A stretch of DNA of 64,000 bases from a virus. Made by a program: the position numbers and the translations under genes. The stretch lies in IMG/VR virus record IMGVR_UViG_3300044991_002272; one strand, given 5' to 3'. Every line of letters starts with the position of its first letter. The first letter of the stretch is position 1. The notes beneath the pieces were generated by a model. That model was given only the letters and a program-made list of their open reading frames with translations. It searched no databases and was not told the DNA's origin. Positions 3,313 to 48,698 of this stretch are shown here, piece by piece.

Positions 3313-3747
3313 TCAGATGATGCTGCGGCTCTTGTATTCCCAAACCCGCTCCACACCGCTGAACGTGGGTGCGGGGAGACTGTCTCCAAGCGGGACCATC
3401 TTGAGTTGACTGCACTTTTCCGGTTCAAGAATGCGAGGAGTTTCCTCACACCAGCCTGTGACGTAGACTGTGATGTAGTGGCGCTGATGCTCTGGGAAAA
3501 AATCCTCTGTGAACAGTGGCACAGTGCAAGGATCTTTCAGCATGACACCAAGCTCTTCGGCGACCTCTCGCCGGGCACAGTCCAGCACAGTCTCTGAAAA
3601 CTCGAGGTGCCCTCCGGGAAAACTCCACTCACCGGCACCATAGCTGCCCTGCCGACGCATGAGCACATAGCCTCCAGGTGACAGCAGCATCACACCCACA
3701 CCTACTCTCACATCTGGAGTGATATCATGATTTTGAGATTGTGACAT
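3313..3747 (-). CDS. Nudix hydrolase
   Basis: Nudix box GGHLEFSETVLDCARREVAEELG. Confidence 0.9.
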   Translation of the reverse strand: MSQSQNHDITPDVRVGVGVMLLSPGGYVLMRRQGSYGAGEWSFPGGHLEFSETVLDCARREVAEELGVMLKDPCTVPLFTEDFFPEHQRHYITVYVTGWCEETPRILEPEKCSQLKMVPLGDSLPAPTFSGVERVWEYKSRSII

Positions 3748-4888
3748 GAGTCAGTAGATCCTTCTTGTCTATTGTATAGCCACTATCGGCCCAAATTTCT
3801 TTAAGCTGTTTGATCACCACCCCATACTCTGGGCCTGGACGCATGCCCAGCTTGATGAGATCGTAGCCAGTGACTGGAAACTCAGGCACCTCCCAAGTGT
3901 CCAGGACTGCCCTCTCAAACACATCCATGTTCTGCAGGGCAGCCAGCTCTCGTGCCCACTCCCGGGAGACACCATGCACGGCCATCTCACGGAAGGGATT
4001 TTTCCCCTTCCAGTCCCGATCGGGGTGGGCGAGATACTGGGCCAGATCAATCTCCTCCCTGCTGGCCTTCCAGTGTTTCAGCACACCTGGTACCTCTCCA
4101 CGCCACATGTACACCATCAGTGTGACTGGGTTGGTGGTATCGGGCACAGGAGGGACCTGGGGGTGCCCATACCACGGTGCACCACGAGGAAAGCCAGCAA
4201 ATCCAGCCATAAGCGGCGCACACCACATGTCATCAACCGTGCTTACCCCCTTGGGGCCCGTGATGATCTGTTTGATCTCGCTCCAGATCCTCTCTACACT
4301 GATTGTGCTCAGACCCGCGCGATGCCGTCTCACAGCAGCCAGCGCATCAGCGTCATACTCCTTGCCAAAGCGTGCAGTGAACCTATACCAACGCAGGATG
4401 CGCAGATAGTCCTCCTGGATGCGAGTGTCAGCATCGCCCACAAACCTCACCCGGCCCAGCTTGAGGTCTTCGGCACCACCAAAGGGGTCAAACAGGGCAC
4501 CATCCAGCGTCATGCTCATGGAATTTATGGTCAGATCTCTTCTCCGGCTGTCAACAAGCCAATCCCGAGTGTATCTCACCACAGCACGACGACCATCCGT
4601 GGCCACATCCTCTCGCAGGCTGGTGATCTCATACGTGACATCGTTCAGCACCACGGTTACTGTGCCATGATCCATGCCAGTGGGGCTCCAGCGTAGTTTC
4701 AGCCTCTCGTAGATGGCAGTGGCCTCTTCCGGAGTAGCATCAGTGTGCAGGTCAATGTCGTTTGGAACGTAGCCCAGCAGTGCGTCTCTTACGCAACCAC
4801 CAACCAGCCTGAGGCCAAACCCCACCAGCTGGAACGCATCACGCAGTTCCAGCAGTGCAGGAGTTGTTAGGGGTGCAGCTGGATTCAC
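3725..4888 (-). CDS. cca: Class II CCA-adding tRNA nucleotidyltransferase / poly(A) polymerase family
   Basis: VGGCVRD, DIDL, RRDLTINSM, EDYLRILR..RF motifs. Start reassigned to GTG 4888, which overlaps the TGA of the upstream small ORF. Confidence 0.88.
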   Translation of the reverse strand: MNPAAPLTTPALLELRDAFQLVGFGLRLVGGCVRDALLGYVPNDIDLHTDATPEEATAIYERLKLRWSPTGMDHGTVTVVLNDVTYEITSLREDVATDGRRAVVRYTRDWLVDSRRRDLTINSMSMTLDGALFDPFGGAEDLKLGRVRFVGDADTRIQEDYLRILRWYRFTARFGKEYDADALAAVRRHRAGLSTISVERIWSEIKQIITGPKGVSTVDDMWCAPLMAGFAGFPRGAPWYGHPQVPPVPDTTNPVTLMVYMWRGEVPGVLKHWKASREEIDLAQYLAHPDRDWKGKNPFREMAVHGVSREWARELAALQNMDVFERAVLDTWEVPEFPVTGYDLIKLGMRPGPEYGVVIKQLKEIWADSGYTIDKKDLLTHVTISKS

Positions 4889-5031
4889 TTCCAGATTTCC
4901 TTGAGCTTGCGGGTGTTGAGACGAGGCAGGGTTTGATTGCTGCTCCACAGAGCCATCATCACCAGTGGGAAGTCCAAACGGAACATCCAACAAAACAAGT
5001 ACACCAAAAACAGGCCCCAAACCAAGCTCAT
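4885..5031 (-). CDS. Small membrane protein
   Basis: MSLVWGLFLVYLFCWMFRLDFPLV..., GGAG RBS, directly below a TTGACA/TATAGT promoter, and coupled to cca by a GTGA overlap. Confidence 0.55.
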   Translation of the reverse strand: MSLVWGLFLVYLFCWMFRLDFPLVMMALWSSNQTLPRLNTRKLKEIWK

Positions 5032-28724: not shown

Positions 28725-30560
28725 TCAAGAGTTTTGGGTGGGTTCAGCTGAGGTTTCAGCCTGTGTATTTTTGTAGATTTCCTCACCCAGCTTCATGGAG
28801 ATTTCACTAAGTTTTGTAGTTTCTTTCTCAATGATTTCAACATCCTCTCCGTCTAATACATGACGCAACGTAGCTAACTGGGGTTCAGCTTCTGCACGAA
28901 GTGTTTCAGAGATTTTGTCGACATTTTCCTTAAGCACCCGCTCTACTGAAGCGATAACGCCATCAGCATTGTTGCGTGCATCTGCAACGCGCCGACGCTC
29001 CTGGTCCGCTGCTTCGTTTTCTTCAGCTTGACGGATCATTTCTAAAATCTCAGCCTCTGACAGTCCACCGTTTGCTTGGATGGAGATTTGTTGAGTTTTG
29101 CCAGTGCCCTTGTCTTGTGCACTGACAGTGACAATGCCATTCGCATCAATATCAAATGCTACGGCGATCTGGGGGCCGCCGCGCGGTGCTGGTGGAATGT
29201 CTTTGAGGTCAAATTGACCTAGCGATTTATTATCTCGCGCCATACTTCTCTCACCTTGGAACACTTTGATAGTAACTGCCTGCTGGTTGTCTTCAGCAGT
29301 ACTGAAAACTTGTTCCTTTTTGGTTGGGATCGTGGTGTTCTTTTCGATGAGTTTGGTGAACACACCTCCCATTGTCTCAATTCCTAGGCTAAGTGGAGTC
29401 ACATCCAGCAGCAGCACATCCTTCACATCACCTTGCAGAACACCAGCCTGCACAGCCGCACCAATAGCCACAGCCTCATCTGGATTTACAGAGTGGTTGG
29501 GCTCCTTGCCAAAGAAGTCTCGGATGGCTTGGCGCACTGCTGGAATACGTGTGGTGCCACCAACGAGGATAATCTCTTTTATCTCATTTTTGTTGATTGA
29601 TGCATCCTTAAGTGCCGCCTGGCACGGGGCTATGATGCGCTTCACAAGATCAGAGGTCAGCTCTTCGAACTTTGCACGAGAGAGCTTCACCAACAGATGT
29701 TTGGGACCAGAAGAGTCAGCTGTGATATAAGGCAAGTTGACTTCAGTTTCACTAGTGCTGCTGAGTTCAATCTTTGCACGCTCTGCGGCTTCACGCAAAC
29801 GTTGCACAGCCATTTTGTCCTTCCGGAGATCTAGCCCTTGGTCACGCAAGAACTCTTGAGCAAGATAGTCTGTTACTCGGGCATCAAAATCCGCACCACC
29901 AAGATGTGTATCACCATTGGTGCTGAGCACCTCTACAACACCACTACCAATATCTAGTACACTGACGTCATGTGTGCCACCGCCTGAATCCACAACAATT
30001 ACCTTGCCATCACCACCTTTGTCAGTGCTGAAAGCTAGAGCTGCTGCTGTGGGTTCATTTATGATACGCATCACTTCAAGTCCAGCAATGCGGCCAGCAT
30101 CTTTTGTTGCCTGTCGTTGTGCATCATCAAAATATGCAGGTACTGTCAGAACAGCTTGGGAGACTTTTTTCCCCAGATAGGTTTCTGCCGTTTCTTTCAT
30201 CTTCAACAGCACCTGAGCGCCAATCTCAGCTGGACTGCGAGCCTGACCTCGGGTTTCTACCCATGCATCGCCATTGTCAGCCTTGACAATTTTGTAAGGT
30301 AGTGTTTTCATATCTGCTGCGACTGATGGATCCGCAAAGCGCCGACCAATCAGGCGCTTGCTTTCAAAAACTGTGTTTTCGGGATTTGTAACAGCCTGTC
30401 GTTTGGCAGCTTGTCCAACCAGTTGTTCCTTGTCAGTCCAAGCCACAATGCTGGGGGTTGTGCGTGCACCTTCTGCGTTTTCAATTACGCGAGCTGTGCC
30501 ATTTTCCATAATGGCCACGCATGAATTCGTAGTTCCAAGATCTATCGCAATGATAGTCAT
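28725..30560 (-). CDS. dnaK: Chaperone DnaK (Hsp70)
   Basis: [60 protein letters not shown] motifs. Confidence 0.97.
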
Positions 30561-30631: not shown

Positions 30632-31477
30632 TTATTCGTCTTTGGATGCAACAGGATTGATAATATTGTTCAAACTTACCCAGTCATTCAAGTTGTTCTG
30701 CATGATCTCAAAATATTCTTGGGCTATTTCAGTTCCAACAAAATGTCGCCCCAGTTTCAATGCCTCTACACCAGTTGTTCCACTGCCTGCAAATGGGTCC
30801 AAGATTACATCTCCTGGATTGCTCCAACTGATGATATGATCATGGGCCATAGCTGTGGGCATTTTGGCTGGATGAGAAATGCTCTTGCATGGCCGTTCTT
30901 GCCCTGCTGTTTTCATGCGCCAAATATTGCCTCGCATACCAAACTCTGAGTAGTCCTTTCTCGACCCCCTGTCTTGCATGAGACCATCCTTGTTACGCAC
31001 TGTGTTCTTACCAAATGTTGCCATGCGTGCATGATCAGGATTATTTAATGCTGTAGTAGGTTTGTCTTTGATGGGATTGAAGGTTTTGGGTTTTCCAAGG
31101 CTGAACACAAACATCCACTCTGCCAATTGGTGGTACCGGTTGCTGCTGGGATTGCTGAAGTTGGCTTTTTCGTAAACCATGGTATCGTGCAGTCGCCAAC
31201 CACTGTCTATGAATTTCAAAGCTTGTCGAAAGCTTGTGCCAGTTTCACTGCCATTCACAACTTGATCAGCCACATTCCACATGACAATACCACCAGGCTT
31301 TGTTACTCTTTTGAGTTCCTTCAACAACTCATCAAAATCCCAAGTGTGGCCTTTGTAGTCTCGGAGGCTGTCGTAAGGAGGACTAGTGACAGTGAGATCA
31401 ATGCTGGCGTCAAGAACATGCTGTTTCAGCATGCCAACATTATCACCTTGATAAATGCTGTAAGGCAAGGTGCTCAA
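30632..31477 (-). CDS. Beta-class amino (N4-C/N6-A) DNA methyltransferase
   Basis: TVTSPPY catalytic motif N-terminal to HPAKMP and VILDPFAGSGTT SAM-binding motif. Confidence 0.9.
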   Translation of the reverse strand: MSTLPYSIYQGDNVGMLKQHVLDASIDLTVTSPPYDSLRDYKGHTWDFDELLKELKRVTKPGGIVMWNVADQVVNGSETGTSFRQALKFIDSGWRLHDTMVYEKANFSNPSSNRYHQLAEWMFVFSLGKPKTFNPIKDKPTTALNNPDHARMATFGKNTVRNKDGLMQDRGSRKDYSEFGMRGNIWRMKTAGQERPCKSISHPAKMPTAMAHDHIISWSNPGDVILDPFAGSGTTGVEALKLGRHFVGTEIAQEYFEIMQNNLNDWVSLNNIINPVASKDE

Positions 31478-32883
31478 GAGTTGTGTCCTACAGCCGCAGC
31501 TACATTATCATAGCGTGGATTGTTCAGCGTTTCCAGCATCACAGTCAACGGCGAAAACTCCTCGCATTTCAAAATGCTTTTCAAGATGCTTGGAGAGAAT
31601 CCACTTACCAAAGCAGCCCCTGTGCTGTGTGCCCTTACGGGAAAATTTCCTGCGCGAGCATTCAGGTTCCACCAAACAATTTTTGGAGTTGAGTAGCCGT
31701 GACGTTGGAAAGTTTCTTGAGCAATGTTCCAAGCCATTTGGTTTGCATCGCTTGAGGAGTCAAACTCTTGATCACTCAGCACCAGCACCACCTTGGGCAT
31801 TTCACTGTTGGGCACATTACCCATCACAGCTACACGCAAGATCTCACGGAAAGCTCGTTCAATGCTGGTGTTCATGCCCCAATGCAGTGTGCTGATTTGG
31901 CGCACCTTCTCCGTCAAGCTGCCTTGCAGTCGCTCAATTCGACTATCACCTGAAAAGGTCAACAGCAAGTCTTTGAAAGCGCCCTGTTGTTTGTCACTTA
32001 CATAGAGCCCCAAACTCAAGGCCACCTCCATACAGGAGAGTTTGGAGTTGCCGCCAACAGCACTACTCATGCTACCAGAGGTGTCAACCATTGGAAGGAT
32101 GTTGTCCTCACCCAACAGATTTGGTAGGCTGTCCCATTGAGCTTGCGCAACTTCTGCATCGCCATTACGCATGCTCTTCAACACATCGTAGGGAAAGAGA
32201 ACGGAGCTGTTCACACGGGCAACACCAGTTTTCAAACCCTCTTTCCAAAGGTTGTAGCGTGCTGGATCATTTTTCAAAAAAGCCTTTTGATAGCGAGCAC
32301 TGGCTACAGAAGGCAATTGGCTATAGTGAATGTTGTGCCATTGTCGCGCACACATCTGTTGTTCCACTGTGTGACATTGGTTAACCACTAACTGGCGATA
32401 TTCTTTGGGAGTTTTGATTCCCAAGAGTTTGCGCAAGCGATTGGCTAGTTGTCCTTGGCGCGGGGCATATTTGGCTGCTAGTGCCTTGCCTTTGTGCAGC
32501 TCATCAGCATAATATGCTAGTGCAACCTGTTGCACTAGTGGATGAGCAATACTGAGTAAGTCGTCATATCTACCAAACTCAGGGATCAATGTGAGCAAGC
32601 GAATTGCCAGCTCTGGATCCTTCTCACACAGTTGGTTGAACAATTTCCGGAAAATATCGCGTTCACCAGCACCACCGCGTGCATCACGTGCCCAAAACAG
32701 GGTTTTCACTGTCAGCAGTGTATCACAACTGAATGCAGCAGAAAATTGAGTAGACAGATTTTTGCCTCGACTGCTGCCGATGACAGCAAAGAGATCCAAT
32801 ACAGGATTGTTGGTTGTTGCATTGGTGGGCATGCCATTGGCTGTTTCTGAGTGGGTGAGATCAACGGCTGCTGCAAAGCTCAT
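31474..32883 (-). CDS. DUF2828-type TROVE-like/vWA protein (Ro60-like architecture)
   Basis: FWARDARGGAGER..FR, IPEFGRYDDL, AAKYAPR, YQKAFLKND, vWA MVDTSGSM, LSDQEFD, WNL. Start reassigned to ATG 32883 (GAGGA RBS). Confidence 0.85.
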   Translation of the reverse strand: MSFAAAVDLTHSETANGMPTNATTNNPVLDLFAVIGSSRGKNLSTQFSAAFSCDTLLTVKTLFWARDARGGAGERDIFRKLFNQLCEKDPELAIRLLTLIPEFGRYDDLLSIAHPLVQQVALAYYADELHKGKALAAKYAPRQGQLANRLRKLLGIKTPKEYRQLVVNQCHTVEQQMCARQWHNIHYSQLPSVASARYQKAFLKNDPARYNLWKEGLKTGVARVNSSVLFPYDVLKSMRNGDAEVAQAQWDSLPNLLGEDNILPMVDTSGSMSSAVGGNSKLSCMEVALSLGLYVSDKQQGAFKDLLLTFSGDSRIERLQGSLTEKVRQISTLHWGMNTSIERAFREILRVAVMGNVPNSEMPKVVLVLSDQEFDSSSDANQMAWNIAQETFQRHGYSTPKIVWWNLNARAGNFPVRAHSTGAALVSGFSPSILKSILKCEEFSPLTVMLETLNNPRYDNVAAAVGHNS

Positions 32884-32913
32884 GCAAAATTTCCTCATGC
32901 ATATGTGTAGTGA

Positions 32914-32942
32914 ACTATACCCTGTAAACAGGGTTGTGTCAA
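32914..32942 (-). promoter_or_regulatory. Sigma70 promoter of the DUF2828 gene with a palindromic spacer
   Basis: TTGACA-CAACCCTGTTTACAGGG-TATAGT (17-bp spacer containing CCCTGT/ACAGGG). Confidence 0.8.
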
Positions 32943-33208
32943 AAATGTCGCAGCTTGATTTCAGCAATCAATTCTTGGAAACTGTCATCTTTCAAATCAA
33001 GAGGAAAGCCTTGCAGTCGGTTATTGTAGATTGGCAGCGTGTATCTAGTGTTCTCTACTTCAAAAAAGATTACAAACTTGTCATTTACTACGTCTTGAGC
33101 TATATCAATGTTCTGAGCCGAGACTTCTGCAATGATCTCGTAGATCAAGGGGCTTAACCAACGATATGTTTGATAGCTGATGTATTGTGCATTTATTTGA
33201 GTAGTCAC
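32939..33208 (-). CDS. Hypothetical protein (89 aa)
   Basis: GTG start with AAGGAG RBS lying inside the 3' stem of RNA unit 3. Confidence 0.65.
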   Translation of the reverse strand: MTTQINAQYISYQTYRWLSPLIYEIIAEVSAQNIDIAQDVVNDKFVIFFEVENTRYTLPIYNNRLQGFPLDLKDDSFQELIAEIKLRHF

Positions 33209-33415
33209 AGGATCTCCTTTGTATCACACATGATGCGATTTTAAGTTTGCGGAAGAGATCCTTTGTGGTGGGCACGGATTTGGATGTGGAATTGAACCAC
33301 TGGTTTTGATAAACAAAACGTTATCCAAAGGTTTGCTGAACCAAATCCTCAAGCCCGTAAACAGAATGCTGTTTTTGCACTTTTCCAATTGCATAAACTT
33401 TGCTGTAAGCATTCT
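33209..33415 (-). ncRNA. Array of three stem-closed RNA units with a shared C(A/C)GCAAA core; unit 2 is tRNA-like
   Basis: Terminal stems AGAATGCT/AGCATTCT (33415-33363), GGATTTGG/CCAAATCC (33348-33276) and AGGATCTC/GAGATCCT (33262-33209). Unit 2 has the T-arm GTGG-TTCAATT-CCAC. Confidence 0.65.
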
Positions 33416-33423
33416 TCCTTTTA

Positions 33424-33452
33424 AGGATATATGACAAATAGTGTTGTGTCAA
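33424..33452 (-). promoter_or_regulatory. Sigma70 promoter directly upstream of the RNA-unit array
   Basis: TTGACA-17-TATCCT; predicted +1 falls just before unit 1. Confidence 0.7.
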
Positions 33453-34273
33453 ATAGCAATTTCAATTTCCACTGGAGTCCAACCAAGGTTTTCACCAGGA
33501 TAGCCTCGAGCGTTGTTGATGTAGCGAACACCAGTCAGCACCCGGTCCTGACGATCATGCGTGTGACCAAAGCACCAAGCCCGAATGTTTGAGTTGGTGA
33601 TGGGTTCCAAGAGTGTGTTTGCATAACTGCCATTTAGCATAACCCACTTGGGGTTTGGATTATACTTCAGCAGTGCTCGATTTGGTGCATGATGCGTCAG
33701 TACCACCACTGGGTGTGCTGAGTTGGTTACAGTGTTTTGGATATACTCAGCATCCGCTTTTGCAGAGTCTACAATTGCTTGCACCTTGTATTCTGTTCCC
33801 CACTGGATATAGCGAGCATCATTCATGTAATGTAGGTAAGCTGAGGATTGCTGCTCAAAGTCAAATGGGCTACCAGCTTGGAAATCATGCCAACCAGTAG
33901 CACCCACAAACTTCACACCGTTGACCACAACACTACCTCGATGCAGAAATGAGACATTATGTGCTTTGTTGTATCGGCTGTAGTGGTCGTAGATTTCCTC
34001 AACAGTGCGCGGATAGGGATACTGAGCGTCAAACTCTGGGTCACTCAGTCGAGTGGAATGAAATCCTAGGTTATAGAAGTCGTGATTTCCAGCCACCCAA
34101 ATTACATGTTCAAATCGCTGACCAGCTTCACGCAGCCACCGGCTTCCAGCGCGAACATCATTTTCAATGTCGCCACACACCACAAGTGGAGTGGCAGAGT
34201 CAACCTCGTCAAGAAGCTGCCAATCCCACCCACTGTGGTCAATGTGAATGTCAGAGATGAGGGCAAATTTCAT
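33449..34273 (-). CDS. Calcineurin-like metallophosphoesterase
   Basis: SDIH, CGDI, VAGNHDFY, THHAP, FGHTH motifs. Confidence 0.9.
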   Translation of the reverse strand: MKFALISDIHIDHSGWDWQLLDEVDSATPLVVCGDIENDVRAGSRWLREAGQRFEHVIWVAGNHDFYNLGFHSTRLSDPEFDAQYPYPRTVEEIYDHYSRYNKAHNVSFLHRGSVVVNGVKFVGATGWHDFQAGSPFDFEQQSSAYLHYMNDARYIQWGTEYKVQAIVDSAKADAEYIQNTVTNSAHPVVVLTHHAPNRALLKYNPNPKWVMLNGSYANTLLEPITNSNIRAWCFGHTHDRQDRVLTGVRYINNARGYPGENLGWTPVEIEIAI

Positions 34274-40439: not shown

Positions 40440-43136
40440 TTATGTTCCTGCTGGTTTTCTGAAACTTCTTACTTTGGCTGCAATCTTGCGTTGATAATCC
40501 ATCAACGTGTTTTGATACCCCTCTACAGCAGCCAAGGCAGCTTTTGATGCAGCCTGATCAGTTTTGGCAAGATCTTTAGCCTCTTCTTCCATTCTCTCAA
40601 TATCAGCAATGAACACGCTGCTCCAGAACTTTCTCAACGCAGCTTCCATACTTTGTCCAATTTGGCTACTGAGCTTGTGAACATTCATTGCCATGATAAT
40701 TTCATCAACAATGAAGTTCACTTTGTCGATCAAATCTTGGCTTATTTGAACTACACCATCTTGCATGACTTTTTTGTTATGCGTTTTGCTGACCAACAGA
40801 TCAAACTTGTTGGCCTCTTGTGCAGCAACGTTTGTTAACCAAGCTAGGAACTCATTGGTGAAGTCAGCTGGGCTGAATTGTGTGTCAACCCAATTCATAA
40901 ATGCCACATTGTCTTTCAAATGCTTGCTGGGATTACGAACTGCGCTGTCAAAAATACTTTCAAGTGAGGCACCAGTTGTTTCCGCAGTTGTGAGCTTTTC
41001 TTTTTGTTCTTGTAACCATAGATCCAGTTGATCCACAAACATTTCTCTATCAACTTCGTTTTTGAAGAGAACATTGTCCATAGTCATCATAATCTTTTTG
41101 CTGGCCATTTTCAACACTGCATCAACGTAGCTATCACTGTCAAATTCGCCGTCTGGTCTCACAAATTGCTCTTTTTTCTCAACCACTCTATCCAAACCGC
41201 GTTGAAGTGCCAACAGCATGTCTGAATACTCTCTGCCACTGATATACACATCGTCATCGCCCACTTGAATATAAAATTGGCGGCTGTCAGAATGGATGTT
41301 ACGGCTGGGGTCAGGCACGTCCAGTTTGAATTTATCTGCAAAGTTGTGAACCAACATACGAGCTATTTCACTAGCCTCTTCACTCAAATCAGCCCGCATC
41401 AAAGCCTCGCTATCATGGAAATCCTTTTGCGAACTCCATCGAGGCGCGGCAGCAATATAGTCGGTTGCGTCTTTCATATGGCCAGTTAGTGGTTGTGTTT
41501 TGATATCAGTGGGATTCATAGCAGCCACAACAATTATATTGTAAGGCAGCTTGACATCATCAGTGAAACTTTTGTTCAAAATCACTCTGCGCAATGTGTT
41601 ATAAGTGGCTGCTTCTTCAGGACGATTGAATTCATCAAAGAACAAGAGATACTGCTTGGATTTTTCAAGCCATTCTTGTTTCCTGGCTTCAGAGATTTTG
41701 GATGAGTTAAGAAAAGCTTCTTTCTTCTTCTCCATCTCATCCATAATCTTCTTATACAATGGAGGATCAGCAAACTTCACATCATATCTGCCGTCCTTTT
41801 CTTGAGGCAATGGAATACCTGTTACATCTTCAGGACGCAATCCACTGCAAGAAACACGAATAAGGCGCAAGTTCAACTTGTCAGCAATGGACGCCATTTC
41901 TGCGGTTTTACCAATGCCAGGTTGTCCAGCAACAATAGGAACATAGGCTCTAGCATCGCCCATTTTTTGAGCCATTTCAACCTGATGCATCAGGGTATCA
42001 CGCCAAAGAGTTGGACTGTTGGGGCTTACTGATGCCAGTTCACTACCACTTGTATCTCTGATAATATCTCGGACTATGGCATCAACCTTGCTGTATAGCT
42101 TGCTGGTGTTTTCAATGTCCTGGAAATTGGCTTTGATATTGGCCAAAAGAGCAGCAGCATCTTCTGTTGTTTTGACTGGCACTGCTGCATTTACATAACT
42201 GATAATCTGTTCCCAGCGACGAGGACTTGTTCTGATTTCATTCTCAACATCATCAAAACTGATGTGCTCATCTTTTATGGCTTTGTAAAAAGCTGTTGCT
42301 ACCTCTGGCTTGAGATGCACACCATCTTTTTCAAATTTGGCAGTCAAATAATGAAAGAAATCACTTTTGTTGGGCGGGGTGAAATGAATTTGTTGAAACT
42401 GATAATTCAAAGGCATTTTTTCAACAGTGCCACCCACATCTTGTAGGTTGCTGGCATACAAACTATACACGTTTGACGGCAAAGGATCTTGACCCACTCG
42501 TTTGTCAATCACCAATTCACGCAAAATGTTGCGCACACCGCCAGTTACTTGGCGCATGAACTCATCAAGGAACAGGATACTTTTGTATTTGCTACGAACC
42601 TCACTGACTCTGCGAGGAATACTTGTGTTGGTGCCACCTAATGCTTGCCAAATGGCCTTGGTGTTGTTGCTGGCATTGGTGTTGATATGATTCAACAGTT
42701 CTTGGTCACTGACTGGCTTTTGGGCTTGTAACAGGGAAACCAAGTGACTTTTACCATAAACCACGTCCCAGTCTTTTGTGCTGATCTGTTCACTACCGGC
42801 TTTTTTGGCTTTGGTAAGGGGATTGTAGACCATAAAAGGAATGTTAACAAGATGCTCTTCAGTAATGTGCGGAGCTTCCACAACCACTGCATTCATACCC
42901 ACTAATTCAGCCAACTGTGCAACAAAGGTGGTTTTGCCAATACCAGTTGGTCCCACAAGGATAACACCTGAAATGTGATCCAGCATGTTGTCCAACACGT
43001 CTTCAATCATTTCTGTTCGAGAATTCAGTGTAGCACTGCTGACAGATATTTTGGCTGGTGCTGGTTTTGCGCCACTGCCGGGAGAGACAGCTTCCAATAA
43101 TGCGTTTTGTAATACTCTAGTAATCTTTGATTTCAT
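40440..43136 (-). CDS. Tandem two-domain AAA+ ATPase (MoxR-like)
   Basis: Two Walker A (GPTGIGKT, GQPGIGKT) and two Walker B (LFLDEF, LFFDEF) motifs, plus SPRRW/SGREY sensor-2-like motifs. Confidence 0.85.
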   Translation of the reverse strand: MKSKITRVLQNALLEAVSPGSGAKPAPAKISVSSATLNSRTEMIEDVLDNMLDHISGVILVGPTGIGKTTFVAQLAELVGMNAVVVEAPHITEEHLVNIPFMVYNPLTKAKKAGSEQISTKDWDVVYGKSHLVSLLQAQKPVSDQELLNHINTNASNNTKAIWQALGGTNTSIPRRVSEVRSKYKSILFLDEFMRQVTGGVRNILRELVIDKRVGQDPLPSNVYSLYASNLQDVGGTVEKMPLNYQFQQIHFTPPNKSDFFHYLTAKFEKDGVHLKPEVATAFYKAIKDEHISFDDVENEIRTSPRRWEQIISYVNAAVPVKTTEDAAALLANIKANFQDIENTSKLYSKVDAIVRDIIRDTSGSELASVSPNSPTLWRDTLMHQVEMAQKMGDARAYVPIVAGQPGIGKTAEMASIADKLNLRLIRVSCSGLRPEDVTGIPLPQEKDGRYDVKFADPPLYKKIMDEMEKKKEAFLNSSKISEARKQEWLEKSKQYLLFFDEFNRPEEAATYNTLRRVILNKSFTDDVKLPYNIIVVAAMNPTDIKTQPLTGHMKDATDYIAAAPRWSSQKDFHDSEALMRADLSEEASEIARMLVHNFADKFKLDVPDPSRNIHSDSRQFYIQVGDDDVYISGREYSDMLLALQRGLDRVVEKKEQFVRPDGEFDSDSYVDAVLKMASKKIMMTMDNVLFKNEVDREMFVDQLDLWLQEQKEKLTTAETTGASLESIFDSAVRNPSKHLKDNVAFMNWVDTQFSPADFTNEFLAWLTNVAAQEANKFDLLVSKTHNKKVMQDGVVQISQDLIDKVNFIVDEIIMAMNVHKLSSQIGQSMEAALRKFWSSVFIADIERMEEEAKDLAKTDQAASKAALAAVEGYQNTLMDYQRKIAAKVRSFRKPAGT

Positions 43137-47540: not shown

Positions 47541-47559
47541 TGTAATTCCTTTTAAAAGT

Positions 47560-47820
47560 GCAACCGCTTCTGTTCCAAGGAGGGTTGCCCTCCCGCTGAG
47601 ACTATGCGGCTATTAGACCGGTAGACTCAAATGCAACGTTGTTGTCGTTAGCATTTGTACGTTTAGAACTGTTCCCATCTCTGGGCGGCCATATCTCACC
47701 GAATGCCTCCTTCAACCCTTACTGCCTGCAATCGATCCTATTTCATCCCCGTTTGGTGGAGATGCGGAAGCACTGCCCTCCCGGTCTTGCATAGCCTATT
47801 TGATTGCTATCAACAGCATC
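47560..47820 (-). ncRNA. ssrA: Permuted (two-piece) tmRNA
   Basis: Acceptor piece ends GGGAG-GGCAGTG-CTTCC-G-CATCTCC-A-CCA (3' end 47754), then AAC, then coding piece GGGGATGAAATAGGATCGA (from 47750) with a G3:U70 pair. Tag ANDNNVAFESTGLIAA* at 47652-47602. Outer ends approximate. Confidence 0.92.
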
Positions 47821-47827
47821 ACTTCCT

Positions 47828-47855
47828 AGTATATCAGGTATTCTTCAGTTGTCAA
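47828..47855 (-). promoter_or_regulatory. Sigma70 promoter of ssrA
   Basis: TTGACA-16-TATACT. Confidence 0.75.
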
Positions 47856-47858
47856 CCA

Positions 47859-48698
47859 TTAGGTTGGTGGTGTGCCAAATTGTGCCACGGGTGACCCCTG
47901 TTGTGCTGCGGCAAGACAGGGATTCACTCCGGAAACACTGCGACTGAAGCCAGATGCAAATCCAGATGTTAATGCTGTTGTGATATTTTGTGTTTCGCGA
48001 GCTACTGCTCCTGTAACTTGGCTTATACCAGCGCCAATGGTGCCTAGCAAGCTGCTGACCCCACTTATGGCGCCAGTGAGTACTCCCACAGCACTCCTTA
48101 CAACTCCAGCAGCAGCTTGTACAACAGCAGAAATGCCACCCACAACTGCCCCAATCAAGCCAGAAATGGCAGAGGTTATAGCCCCAATTATGCGTGCAGG
48201 GATACTTACAAGAGCTCCTACAAATTGGCCTATAGCACTAGTAATAGATCCCAATGTGTCGTTGTATCGGCCTTGTATGGTTCCTATGTAATCACCAACA
48301 GTAGCACACCTACTGGGATCTTGTGCTCTACCTGGTTGAAAAAAGTCATTTATTGCCCGAAATATTCGCGTACCGTCATCCACAATCCTGTCTCTATGAC
48401 TTGCCAACAGTGTGCCAAAGCCGCCTATTTGGCCAACAGCTTGCAATGGTCCCAAGCTCTGTTGCACTGCCCTCTGAGCGTCAGGATCATTGGCTGCGGC
48501 TGCTTGTGCAGCTTGTATAGCATCATTTATAGCTACTACTTGAGGTTGATTAGCATCTTCGTTAATCTGTCTAACCAATCGATCATAGGCCGGATTGACT
48601 CGAGGTGGTGGTAGATCCTCAATTTGTATACTCGCTATTTCATTAGGGGTTGCTATGACATTGAAGGCCACATACCCGCCGTCTCGCTCACCAGCCAT
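47859..48698 (-). CDS. Hypothetical, probably virion-associated protein with an amphipathic Gly/Ala/Ser-rich region
   Basis: TAAATA at 48721-48726, AGGAG RBS, periodic small and hydrophobic residues. Confidence 0.65.
   Translation of the reverse strand: MAGERDGGYVAFNVIATPNEIASIQIEDLPPPRVNPAYDRLVRQINEDANQPQVVAINDAIQAAQAAAANDPDAQRAVQQSLGPLQAVGQIGGFGTLLASHRDRIVDDGTRIFRAINDFFQPGRAQDPSRCATVGDYIGTIQGRYNDTLGSITSAIGQFVGALVSIPARIIGAITSAISGLIGAVVGGISAVVQAAAGVVRSAVGVLTGAISGVSSLLGTIGAGISQVTGAVARETQNITTALTSGFASGFSRSVSGVNPCLAAAQQGSPVAQFGTPPT

What the first reader, a model, noticed from the sequence alone, without database searches (positions are those of the whole stretch)
33209..33415. Three tandem stem-closed RNA units sharing a CMGCAAA core
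Each unit has a different 8-bp terminal stem, followed by TACAGCAAA, TTCAGCAAA or TTCCGCAAA, then a variable inner hairpin, then the closing strand and GT. Stem sequences differ while pairing is preserved, which suggests structural selection. The predicted transcription start is a few nt before unit 1. This resembles a processed multi-unit ncRNA cassette rather than a CRISPR array or terminators. I recognise no named family for it.
Basis: seen in the sequence. Interest (0 to 1): 0.8.

Follow-up and report, generated by a model that had tools for sequence, protein, structure and literature searches.

The report
Partner RNAs of phage Ro60-like protein
Three small folded RNA genes in a lake-water phage lie just ahead of a gene for a ring-shaped Ro60-like protein (DUF2828). 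They belong to a widespread RNA family that I found in neither Rfam nor the papers I could search; it accompanies this protein in many phages and some bacteria and resembles the unexplained Class I RNAs of social amoebae.

Summary
On the minus strand, 33415-33206, three adjacent units each have a different 8-10 bp closing stem, an unpaired UACAGCAA, UUCAGCAA or UCCGCAA next to the 5' strand, variable inner hairpins and a GU tail.

They are not a local oddity. A covariance model built from such units gave 118 matches in 99 loci that encode relatives of the gene 320 nt downstream. All 118 were on that gene's strand, none inside it, with strong stem covariation. In three whole bacterial genomes the only matches lay beside that gene.

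The gene encodes a DUF2828+DUF7788 protein. Its confident model matches only Ro60/Rsr over its full length, although Pfam's TROVE family does not match it.

The array is the best-conserved stretch of the locus (90% against 67-80% for neighbouring genes), and a sigma-70-like promoter ends about 8 nt before unit 1.

Best reading: Y-RNA-like partner RNAs of a Ro60-like protein, with a handle unlike the canonical Ro60 site. No Rfam family reaches threshold. The nearest is Dictyostelium Class I RNA, then YrlA for relatives' long units. Binding and expression are inferred, not shown.

This scan has noted the same pairing before on other DNA (146 notes, at least 129 genomes).

The parts
33424..33452 (-). 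Sigma-70-like promoter of the RNA array (TTGACA, 17 nt, TATCCT). The predicted start is near 33417.
   Evidence: 10 of 12 matches. The -35 hexamer is conserved in relatives, and a better -10 (TATAGT) stands at the same place in L122. This is a consensus match only; the start has not been mapped.
33360..33415 (-). Unit 1: 8-bp closing stem, unpaired UACAGCAAA, one inner hairpin, tail GUU.
   Evidence: Model R1 scores 37.6 bits (this unit was in the seed). Rfam RF01414 scores 21.5 bits, below its threshold of 41.5.
33273..33348 (-). Unit 2: 8-bp closing stem, unpaired UUCAGCAAA, two inner hairpins, tail GUG. The second hairpin is a T-arm look-alike (GUGG-UUCAAUU-CCAC).
   Evidence: Model R1 scores 26.6 bits, E 4.6e-5, and this unit was not in the seed. 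A weak tRNA-Sec match rests on the T-arm.
33206..33262 (-). Unit 3: 9-10 bp closing stem, unpaired UCCGCAAA, one inner hairpin, tail GUG. Its 3' strand holds AAGGAG, and its tail GUG is the start codon of the next ORF.
   Evidence: Model R1 scores 42.0 bits (this unit was in the seed). Rfam RF01414 scores 15.8 bits.
32939..33208 (-). Small ORF of 89 aa between the array and the DUF2828 gene. It is real but specific to this lineage, and its role is unknown.
   Evidence: It keeps 55% protein identity with the relative L122 over its full length. Only close relatives appear in the protein search. No Pfam or PHROG family matches it.
32914..32942 (-). Second sigma-70-like promoter (TTGACA, 17 nt, TATAGT), ahead of the DUF2828 gene.
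   Evidence: 11 of 12 matches. This is a consensus match only.
31474..32886 (-). Gene for the presumed protein partner: a DUF2828 + DUF7788 protein of 470 aa from the ATG at 32886. Its fold is Ro60-like: a helical ring plus a vWA domain with an intact MIDAS motif.
   Evidence: Pfam. PHROG 850, named 'RNA-binding protein'. AlphaFold model with pLDDT 91 and pTM 0.91. The top 13 Foldseek matches in the PDB are all Ro60, Rsr or phage phiLo Ro60. D268, S270, S272, T340 and D372 are invariant in 35 sequences. The homologues are about 470 aa long, which supports the ATG at 32886 as the start.

Best explanation
The three units are genes for small non-coding RNAs that act as partners of the Ro60-like DUF2828 protein encoded 320 nt downstream. 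This would be a second kind of Ro60/Y-RNA ribonucleoprotein.

Each RNA has a constant 'handle' and a variable inner module.
- The handle is a 7-8 bp stem that joins the 5' and 3' ends (family consensus A-G-G-W-U-N-N-N pairing with N-N-N-A-W-C-C-U), an unpaired U-W-C-A/C-G-C-A-A directly after the 5' strand, and a G (usually GU) after the 3' strand.
- The inner modules here are a plain hairpin in U1 and U3, and a hairpin plus a T-arm mimic in U2.

Proposed mechanism. The array is transcribed from the promoter at 33452-33424 and probably cut into three RNAs of about 55-75 nt. The ring protein recognises the handle. The variable modules then gate the protein or tether it to other factors or RNA substrates, as Y RNAs do for Ro60/Rsr.

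Shown here: the structure, its covariation, its strand-specific linkage to the DUF2828 gene, its strong sequence conservation, and the Ro60-like fold of the protein.

Inferred: transcription, processing, binding of the handle by the protein, and the downstream function.
For: 1. Linkage to the gene.
- NC[AC]GCAA is 5 times denser in the 400 nt upstream of DUF2828 genes, on the gene's strand, than elsewhere (3.98 against 0.75 per kb).
- There, 64% of these motifs have a closing stem of at least 7 bp, against 6-10% in controls.
- Model R1 gives 118 matches at E<=0.01 in 99 loci, found in 68 of them. All are on the gene's strand: 105 upstream (median distance 120 nt), 13 downstream, none inside the gene.
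- In three whole bacterial genomes (17.8 Mb) the only matches at E<=0.01 are those beside the DUF2828 gene.

2. Structure.
- All 8 stem pairs show changes on both sides.
- 306 cells have a change on both sides, against 101 in shuffles (0 of 500 shuffles reach the observed value).
- 92% of cells are paired, against 32-45% when the 3' partner is slid (the seed set gives the same picture).

3. Conservation.
- The array is 90% identical to that of a relative whose flanking genes are 67-80% identical and whose leader is 55% identical.
- The stem changes are G-C to G-U and U-G to U-A.

4. Partner protein.
- The confident model matches Ro60, Rsr and phage phiLo Ro60 over its full length (E 1.5e-8 to 4.8e-6, TM up to 0.64). 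After these come vWA domains only.
- The MIDAS residues are invariant.

5. Parallels with Y RNAs.
- In relatives the same handle encloses permuted tRNA-like modules. These give sub-threshold YrlA matches, one over the full model length.
- Mycobacterium phage Finemlucis has an unannotated three-unit array, with a tRNA-like middle unit and a terminator, directly after its 'Ro-like RNA binding protein' gene. Felixounavirus EC6 has four units after its homologue.

6. A promoter ends about 8 nt before U1.
Against: - There is no expression evidence and no binding evidence of any kind.
- The handle is unlike the known Ro60-binding site, which is a helix with a CGAA motif. How the protein would bind it is therefore unknown.
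- 31 of the 99 loci gave no model match. Some have short flanks; others may be more divergent or may truly lack the RNAs.
- The seed units were chosen by a rule that demanded a stem, and alignment A4 is fitted to the model. The percentage paired is therefore inflated. The strand bias, the position bias, the whole-genome specificity and control (b) do not depend on that choice.
- U3 overlaps the ribosome-binding site and start codon of the next ORF, and no terminator follows the array. At this locus the RNAs could therefore also be, or only be, part of an mRNA leader.
Confidence: 0.7

Rival explanations
1. The units are cis-acting leader elements of the mRNA for the 89-aa ORF and the DUF2828 gene. 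For example, they could be operator sites where the DUF2828 protein represses its own operon, or structures that mask the ribosome-binding site. On this reading they are not free-standing RNAs.
For: The array lies between a promoter and the next ORF, with no terminator. The 3' strand of U3 contains AAGGAG, and its tail GUG is the ORF's start codon. 105 of 118 family members lie upstream of the gene.
Against: 13 units lie downstream of the gene. In Finemlucis and EC6 all units lie downstream, among tRNA genes or ahead of a terminator. The DUF2828 gene here has its own strong promoter after the array. The small ORF exists only in this lineage, whereas the RNA family is widespread. Units that carry whole tRNA-like modules make little sense as operators.
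Confidence: 0.12
2. The units are independent tRNA-related RNAs that only share neighbourhoods with DUF2828 because both sit in phage tRNA/RNA-repair islands. They could be decoys or baits for host tRNA-cleaving defence nucleases, or punctuation signals for RNase P/Z-type processing. On this reading they do not bind the DUF2828 protein.
For: Many related loci are tRNA arrays. Some units enclose sequences that score as tRNA, and U2 has a T-loop hairpin. The window also encodes a CCA-adding enzyme and a tmRNA.
Against: This window has no tRNA genes at all, yet it has the array right at the DUF2828 gene. In three bacterial genomes the only matches lie next to that gene. The constant part of the family is the handle, not the tRNA-like part.
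Confidence: 0.12
3. The region is not an RNA feature. It would instead encode the 62-aa ORF at 33412-33224, or act at the DNA level as inverted repeats for a DNA-binding protein or for recombination.
For: An ATG-started ORF of 62 aa spans the array on the same strand. The stems are inverted repeats in the DNA.
Against: The ORF is not kept in the relative L122, where a 1-nt indel breaks it into 28-48 aa pieces. It matches no Pfam family, and gene callers placed no gene there in the relatives. All 118 family matches are on one strand, and G-U pairs are used in the stems. Neither fits a DNA palindrome.
Confidence: 0.03

Closest known systems
Ro60 (Rsr, TROVE + vWA) with Y RNAs, especially bacterial and phage YrlA/YrlB (Rfam RF02553; Chen et al. 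2014, PMC4201824)
   Same: - Small RNAs are encoded within a few hundred nt of the ring-protein gene and on its strand.
- The 5' and 3' ends pair into a closing stem.
- A constant protein-side part is combined with variable modules.
- In related loci the module is a permuted tRNA-like domain (T arm before D arm), as in YrlA.
- The protein has the Ro60 fold and a MIDAS-bearing vWA domain.
   Different: - By sequence the protein is DUF2828/DUF7788, not TROVE: no TROVE match even at E<=10, and no PDB match by profile.
- The handle is a short stem plus unpaired CAGCAA, not the long helix with the conserved Ro60 site.
- RF02553 gives no match in the window. In relatives it reaches at most 31.7 bits against a threshold of 69.
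- The window's units are short (56-76 nt), and only U2 has a tRNA-like piece.
Thermus phage phiLo Ro60 with Yrl1/Yrl2 (Hu et al. 2025, PMC12135203; PDB 9kop, 9l5y)
   Same: A phage-encoded Ro60-fold protein of about 460 aa, with small RNAs encoded just upstream of its gene. It is among the top structural matches to the window's protein. For phiLo, binding of the RNAs and an effect on host PNPase were shown by experiment.
   Different: The phiLo RNAs were picked by the canonical CGAA motif in an internal bulge; the units here have none of that and use CAGCAA. Identity over the Foldseek alignments with the phiLo chains is only 17-19%, and the sequence profile does not find them.
Class I RNAs of dictyostelid social amoebae (Rfam RF01414; Kjellin et al. 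2021, PMC7919456)
   Same: - RNAs of 42-65 nt with a short stem joining the 5' and 3' ends.
- A conserved unpaired motif directly after the 5' strand: CCUUACAGCAA there, CUUACAGCAA in U1.
- A variable rest, and a conserved ...CUG 3' end.
- The genes are often clustered.
- RF01414 is the best non-tRNA Rfam match for U1 and U3 and for units in two other loci (35.2 and 30.1 bits). It matched nothing except such units in the stretches searched.
   Different: - All scores are below Rfam's threshold of 41.5 (21.5 and 15.8 bits in the window).
- A further batch of 11 loci gave no RF01414 match.
- Class I RNAs are eukaryotic, each with its own DUSE promoter, and are reported as unique to Dictyostelia. 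Their known direct binder is the RRM protein Rnp1A.
- I could not test whether dictyostelids encode a DUF2828 protein.

Membership tests
Y RNA / YrlA (Rfam RF02553, RF00019) | Match to the family's covariance model at its gathering score | tested here: not met
   No Y RNA or YrlA match in the window at the gathering threshold, nor at E<=10 around the finding. In related loci YrlA reaches 24.7-31.7 bits against a threshold of 69.
Y RNA / YrlA (Rfam RF02553, RF00019) | Encoded beside, and on the strand of, a Ro60 orthologue carrying a TROVE domain | tested here: inconclusive
   Position and strand fit. The neighbour has the Ro60 fold but does not match Pfam TROVE even at E<=10.
Y RNA / YrlA (Rfam RF02553, RF00019) | Long terminal stem holding the conserved Ro60-binding helix (CGAA-type motif) | tested here: not met
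   The stems are 8-10 bp with variable sequence. The conserved element is an unpaired UWCMGCAA. The motif is described.
Y RNA / YrlA (Rfam RF02553, RF00019) | tRNA-like domain (T arm, D arm, closed acceptor stem) in at least one RNA of the locus | tested here: inconclusive
   U2 has only a T-arm-like hairpin. Full permuted tRNA-like modules occur in units of other loci.
Dictyostelium Class I RNA (Rfam RF01414) | Match to the covariance model at its gathering score (41.5 bits) | tested here: not met
   U1 scores 21.5 bits and U3 15.8 bits. The best related unit scores 35.2 bits.
Dictyostelium Class I RNA (Rfam RF01414) | Short stem joining the ends, an 11-nt motif CCUUACAGCAA next to the 5' strand, length 42-65 nt | tested here: inconclusive
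   Stem and length fit for U1 and U3. U1 has 10 of the 11 motif bases, while U2 and U3 have UUCAGCAA and UCCGCAA. U2 is 76 nt long.
Dictyostelium Class I RNA (Rfam RF01414) | Dictyostelid gene with a DUSE promoter about 60 nt upstream | tested here: not met
   The window is phage DNA with a bacterial sigma-70-like promoter. The feature is described.
tRNA | Cloverleaf recognised by ARAGORN or Rfam RF00005 | tested here: not met
   There are no tRNA genes in the window and no RF00005 match.
CRISPR array | Near-identical direct repeats separated by unique spacers | tested here: not met
   There are no direct repeats of the units. The only repeats are three different inverted pairs.
Ro60 / TROVE protein family (for the neighbouring gene) | Helical-repeat ring plus C-terminal vWA domain with a MIDAS motif | tested here: met
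   Model with pLDDT 91. The 13 best PDB matches are all Ro60, Rsr or phiLo Ro60 over the full length. D-x-S-x-S, T and D are invariant.
Ro60 / TROVE protein family (for the neighbouring gene) | Sequence match to Pfam TROVE (PF05731) or to solved Ro60 chains | tested here: not met
   Pfam gives only DUF2828, DUF7788 and a weak VWA_2 match at E<=10. The profile search of PDB sequences finds no Ro60.

The most novel reading that the evidence does not exclude
The 'stem + CAGCAA' RNAs and the Class I RNAs of dictyostelid amoebae would be one RNA family, or a convergent solution to binding one protein family. DUF2828 proteins would then be the long-missing core partner of Class I RNAs. That would define a second Ro60/Y-RNA-like ribonucleoprotein system shared by phages, bacteria, archaea and eukaryotes. 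Class I RNAs would then not be a dictyostelid invention tied to multicellularity.
Probability: 0.15. Interest if true: 0.9.

Novelty: new variant of a known kind. Interest (0 to 1): 0.75.

Why it matters
Ro60 and its Y RNAs are a classic RNA-surveillance particle and a lupus autoantigen. Their bacterial and phage versions are only beginning to be understood.

Here a second, sequence-unrelated-looking branch of Ro60-fold proteins (DUF2828) turns out to have its own partner-RNA family with a different handle. By tblastn this protein is present in 710 cultured phage records, including Felix O1-type, mycobacterial, Listeria and Staphylococcus phages.

That gives these unannotated intergenic RNAs a testable function in well-studied laboratory phages. 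It gives DUF2828 a concrete hypothesis. It also offers a modular 'handle plus cargo' RNA design, in which the cargo ranges from plain hairpins to T arms to whole tRNA-like domains.

The likeness of the handle to Dictyostelium Class I RNAs, published as unique to social amoebae, makes an open question directly testable: what do those abundant RNAs bind?

Tried and rejected
- blastn of the locus against GenBank phages found no match.
- The nearest held virus record, G001, is a 9%-complete fragment and has no model match.
- Expression: no RNA holder is listed among the public runs. The stretch is held only in lake-water and aquatic DNA metagenomes.
- The profile of the protein against PDB sequences found no Ro60. 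The link to Ro60 is at fold level only.
- The 'atlas' fold library was not available.
- The protein-atlas search returned only viral DUF2828 clusters and said nothing about eukaryotes.
- Avesson et al. 2011, which lists the four Class I RNA-binding proteins, is not held. The supplements of Chen et al. 2014, which list the 22 phages, are not held. I therefore could not check whether any DUF2828 phage was among their YrlA hosts, or whether a DUF2828 protein was among the Class I binders.
- The papers that mention DUF2828 (5) concern plants or a tardigrade and say nothing about RNA.
- The 89-aa ORF shows no similarity to the small ORFs that precede the DUF2828 gene in EC6 and Finemlucis, so there is no evidence for a conserved small protein partner.
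- TTGACACAAC, shared by the two promoters, is not enriched in the window.
- CRISPR, tRNA, terminator and coding readings were rejected.

Full report
**What is in the sequence**

The finding lies on the minus strand, like every gene around it. From 33415 down to 33206 there are three adjacent units.
- U1, 33415-33360: stem AGAAUGCU/AGCAUUCU and core UACAGCAAA.
- U2, 33348-33273: stem GGAUUUGG/CCAAAUCC and core UUCAGCAAA.
- U3, 33262-33206: stem AGGAUCUC(U)/(G)GAGAUCCU and core UCCGCAAA.

Each unit ends with G-U after the closing strand. The repeat finder returns exactly these three inverted-repeat pairs and no direct repeats of the units.

Folded alone, each unit gives closing stem, unpaired core and inner hairpin(s). 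U2 has two hairpins, and the second (GUGG-UUCAAUU-CCAC) carries a T-loop sequence. The array folds better than shuffles on the minus strand (z -3.28) and less so on the plus strand (z -1.73).

The bare 9-mer is not over-represented in the window: 3 found, 3.95 expected. But all three copies sit in this 207-nt stretch on one strand.

**Context**

The window is part of a lake-water phage. Four near-identical 71-kb IMG/VR contigs match it. It encodes topoisomerase II subunits, ribonucleotide reductase and virion proteins, and the stretch occurs in lake-water DNA metagenomes.

Upstream of the array is a metallophosphoesterase gene (33449-34273). Downstream lie an 89-aa ORF (32939-33208), a 470-aa DUF2828+DUF7788 gene (31474-32886), a DNA methylase gene and an Hsp70 gene.

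A sigma-70-like promoter, TTGACA-17-TATCCT, ends at 33424. That places the start about two bases before U1. A second, stronger promoter precedes the DUF2828 gene. No terminator-like site follows the array.

**The units belong to a family that travels with the DUF2828 gene**

I collected 80 viral and 37 genomic loci that encode relatives of the protein, each oriented with the gene on the plus strand.

*Pattern scan.* A simple scan for a stem of at least 7 bp, then NC[AC]GCAA, then a closing strand gave 232 same-strand hits and 48 opposite-strand hits. These figures count all 121 loci fetched so far, including eight near-identical copies of the window's own contig. The later counts use the de-duplicated set.

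In 106 non-redundant loci:
- 89 hits lie within 250 nt upstream on the gene's strand, against 1 on the other strand.
- The core alone is 5 times denser in the upstream 400 nt than elsewhere.
- 64% of those cores have a closing stem, against 6-10% in controls.

*Covariance model.* Model R1, built from 46 units, found only the three units in the 64-kb window with filters off. U2 was not in the seed and still scored 26.6 bits, E 4.6e-5.

In 99 loci R1 gave 118 matches at E<=0.01.
- All are on the gene's strand.
- 105 are upstream (median distance 120 nt), 13 downstream, none inside the gene.
- They fall in 68 of the 99 loci.

In whole-genome searches of five bacterial genomes, three had matches at E<=0.01. 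Each of those matches is the one next to the DUF2828 gene (only 150 first-look candidates per genome were scored).

*Covariation.* All eight stem pairs change on both sides. There are 306 double changes against 101 in shuffles (0 of 500 shuffles reach that). 92% of cells are paired, against 32-45% when the partner is slid (the seed alignment gives the same picture). The eighth pair is weak.

The seeds were chosen with a stem rule, and A4 is fitted to the model, so the percentage paired is inflated. The strand, position and genome-wide results do not depend on that.

*Family handle.* It reads A-G-G-W-U-N-N-N, then U-W-C-A/C-G-C-A-A, then a variable part, then N-N-N-A-W-C-C-U, then G (117 of 118), then U or A.

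**Selection at this locus**

Relatives with 92% and 78% identical DUF2828 proteins keep the same gene order and the same three units.

Against the 78% relative:
- the array is 90% identical;
- the flanking genes are 67-80% identical;
- the leader is 55% identical.

The few stem changes turn G-C into G-U or U-G into U-A.

The 62-aa ORF that overlaps the array is broken in that relative and was not called as a gene. The 89-aa ORF is a real gene (55% protein identity) but exists only in this lineage.

**The partner protein**

The AlphaFold model is confident (pLDDT 91, pTM 0.91). Its 13 best PDB matches are all Ro60: Xenopus and human Ro60, Deinococcus Rsr, and Thermus phage phiLo Ro60. They align over the full length at E 1.5e-8 to 4.8e-6 and TM up to 0.64. 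After them come isolated vWA domains.

The MIDAS residues (D268, S270, S272, T340, D372) are invariant in 35 sequences.

By sequence the protein is not TROVE. Pfam gives only DUF2828 and DUF7788, plus a weak VWA_2 match, at E<=10, and a profile search of PDB sequences finds no Ro60. PHROGs names the family 'RNA-binding protein'.

tblastn finds the protein in 710 cultured phage records: Escherichia and Salmonella Felix O1-type phages, and Mycobacterium, Listeria, Staphylococcus, Campylobacter and Vibrio phages. Mycobacteriophage annotators call it 'Ro-like RNA binding protein'.

In two such phages, both DUF2828 by Pfam, R1 finds unannotated units directly after the gene.
- Finemlucis has three units. 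The middle one has a permuted tRNA-like module, and a terminator follows the array.
- Felixounavirus EC6 has four units among its tRNA genes.

**How it most likely works**

The anatomy is that of a Y RNA: ends paired, a constant protein-side element and a variable module. The neighbour is a Ro60-fold protein. In other loci the same handle encloses permuted tRNA-like domains or even sequences that score as tRNA. These give sub-threshold YrlA matches, one over the full model length.

I therefore read the units as Y-RNA-like partners of the DUF2828 protein. The handle would be the protein-binding part. The inner modules would be adaptors that gate the ring or tether it to other factors, as shown for Rsr-Y RNA-PNPase and for phiLo Ro60.

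Transcription, cutting into three RNAs, binding and function are all inferences. I found no RNA data.

At this locus U3 also covers the AAGGAG and the GUG start of the 89-aa ORF, so a local regulatory side-effect is possible.

**Comparison with what is known**

The window has no Y RNA or YrlA match, and the handle is not the canonical Ro60 site. Chen et al. searched TROVE-annotated genomes, and the phiLo RNAs were picked by a CGAA motif.

The nearest Rfam family for U1 and U3 is Dictyostelium Class I RNA. It shares the short end-joining stem, CUUACAGCAA next to the 5' strand, the ...CUG end and a similar length.
- The scores are 21.5 and 15.8 bits in the window, and 35.2 and 30.1 bits for units in two other loci. 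The threshold is 41.5.
- In the stretches searched the model matched nothing but such units.
- A further batch of 11 loci gave no match.

Class I RNAs are published as unique to Dictyostelia, with the RRM protein Rnp1A as the known direct binder. I could not test whether dictyostelids have a DUF2828 protein, so homology remains a minority reading.

I found no paper that links DUF2828 to RNAs. A jumbo-phage survey mentions only ROT/TROVE proteins with a tRNA-like partner.

**Earlier notes of this scan**

After I had formed this reading (notes), a look-up showed that the scan has recorded the same DUF2828 + CAGCAA pairing many times on other DNA: 146 notes in at least 129 genomes, including Felix O1-type phages. 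One note carries a later check that kept the observation at 90 in 100 and gave its bold reading 6 in 100. I treated these notes as leads. My scores rest on the tests above.

**Verdict**

The feature is a real, strongly conserved three-gene array of a widespread, uncatalogued RNA family linked to a Ro60-like protein. It is a new variant of the Ro60/Y-RNA kind. Confidence is about 0.9 that these are functional structured RNAs tied to DUF2828, and about 0.7 that they are its bound partners.

Noticed in passing
window 47557-47869 (-): A two-piece (permuted) tmRNA gene in this phage: RF04321 at 76.5 bits and alpha_tmRNA at 68.8 bits, both above threshold. A related DUF2828 locus, L038, also has one 1.4 kb upstream of the gene (L038 746-1072, 142.5 bits).
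   Followed up: no
window 3725-5020 (-): A phage-encoded CCA-adding tRNA nucleotidyltransferase (PHROG 2244; NCBIfam matches below cut-off), although ARAGORN finds no tRNA gene in the 64-kb window. It could act on host tRNAs or on tRNA-like RNAs.
   Followed up: partly
window 28725-30560 (-): A full-length Hsp70/DnaK gene (851.8 bits), kept in synteny with the DUF2828 gene and a DNA methylase gene in relatives.
   Followed up: no
window 33206-33225 (-): The 3' strand of unit 3's closing stem contains AAGGAG, and its tail GUG is the start codon of the conserved 89-aa ORF. Folding of unit 3 would therefore hide that ORF's ribosome-binding site.
   Followed up: partly
L042 3966-4065; L105 2223-2340: Family units whose handle encloses a sequence that scores as a complete tRNA (RF00005 at 55.7 and 45.4 bits). 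These are not only tRNA-like fragments.
   Followed up: no
L127 3939-4198 (Mycobacterium phage Finemlucis, MF185728.1 about 42312-42571): An unannotated three-unit array directly after gp55 ('Ro-like RNA binding protein'), followed by an intrinsic-terminator-like hairpin. The layout matches the window's: plain unit, tRNA-like unit, plain unit.
   Followed up: partly
L041 5430-5574; L022 5803-5947: Polynucleobacter-1 RNA (RF01718; 91.5 and 83.2 bits, above threshold) lies 1.5-2 kb downstream of the DUF2828 gene in two viral contigs.
   Followed up: no
window 32933-32942 and 33443-33452 (-): Both promoter-like sites of the locus begin with the same 10-mer, TTGACACAAC. The 10-mer is not enriched in the window as a whole.
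   Followed up: yes
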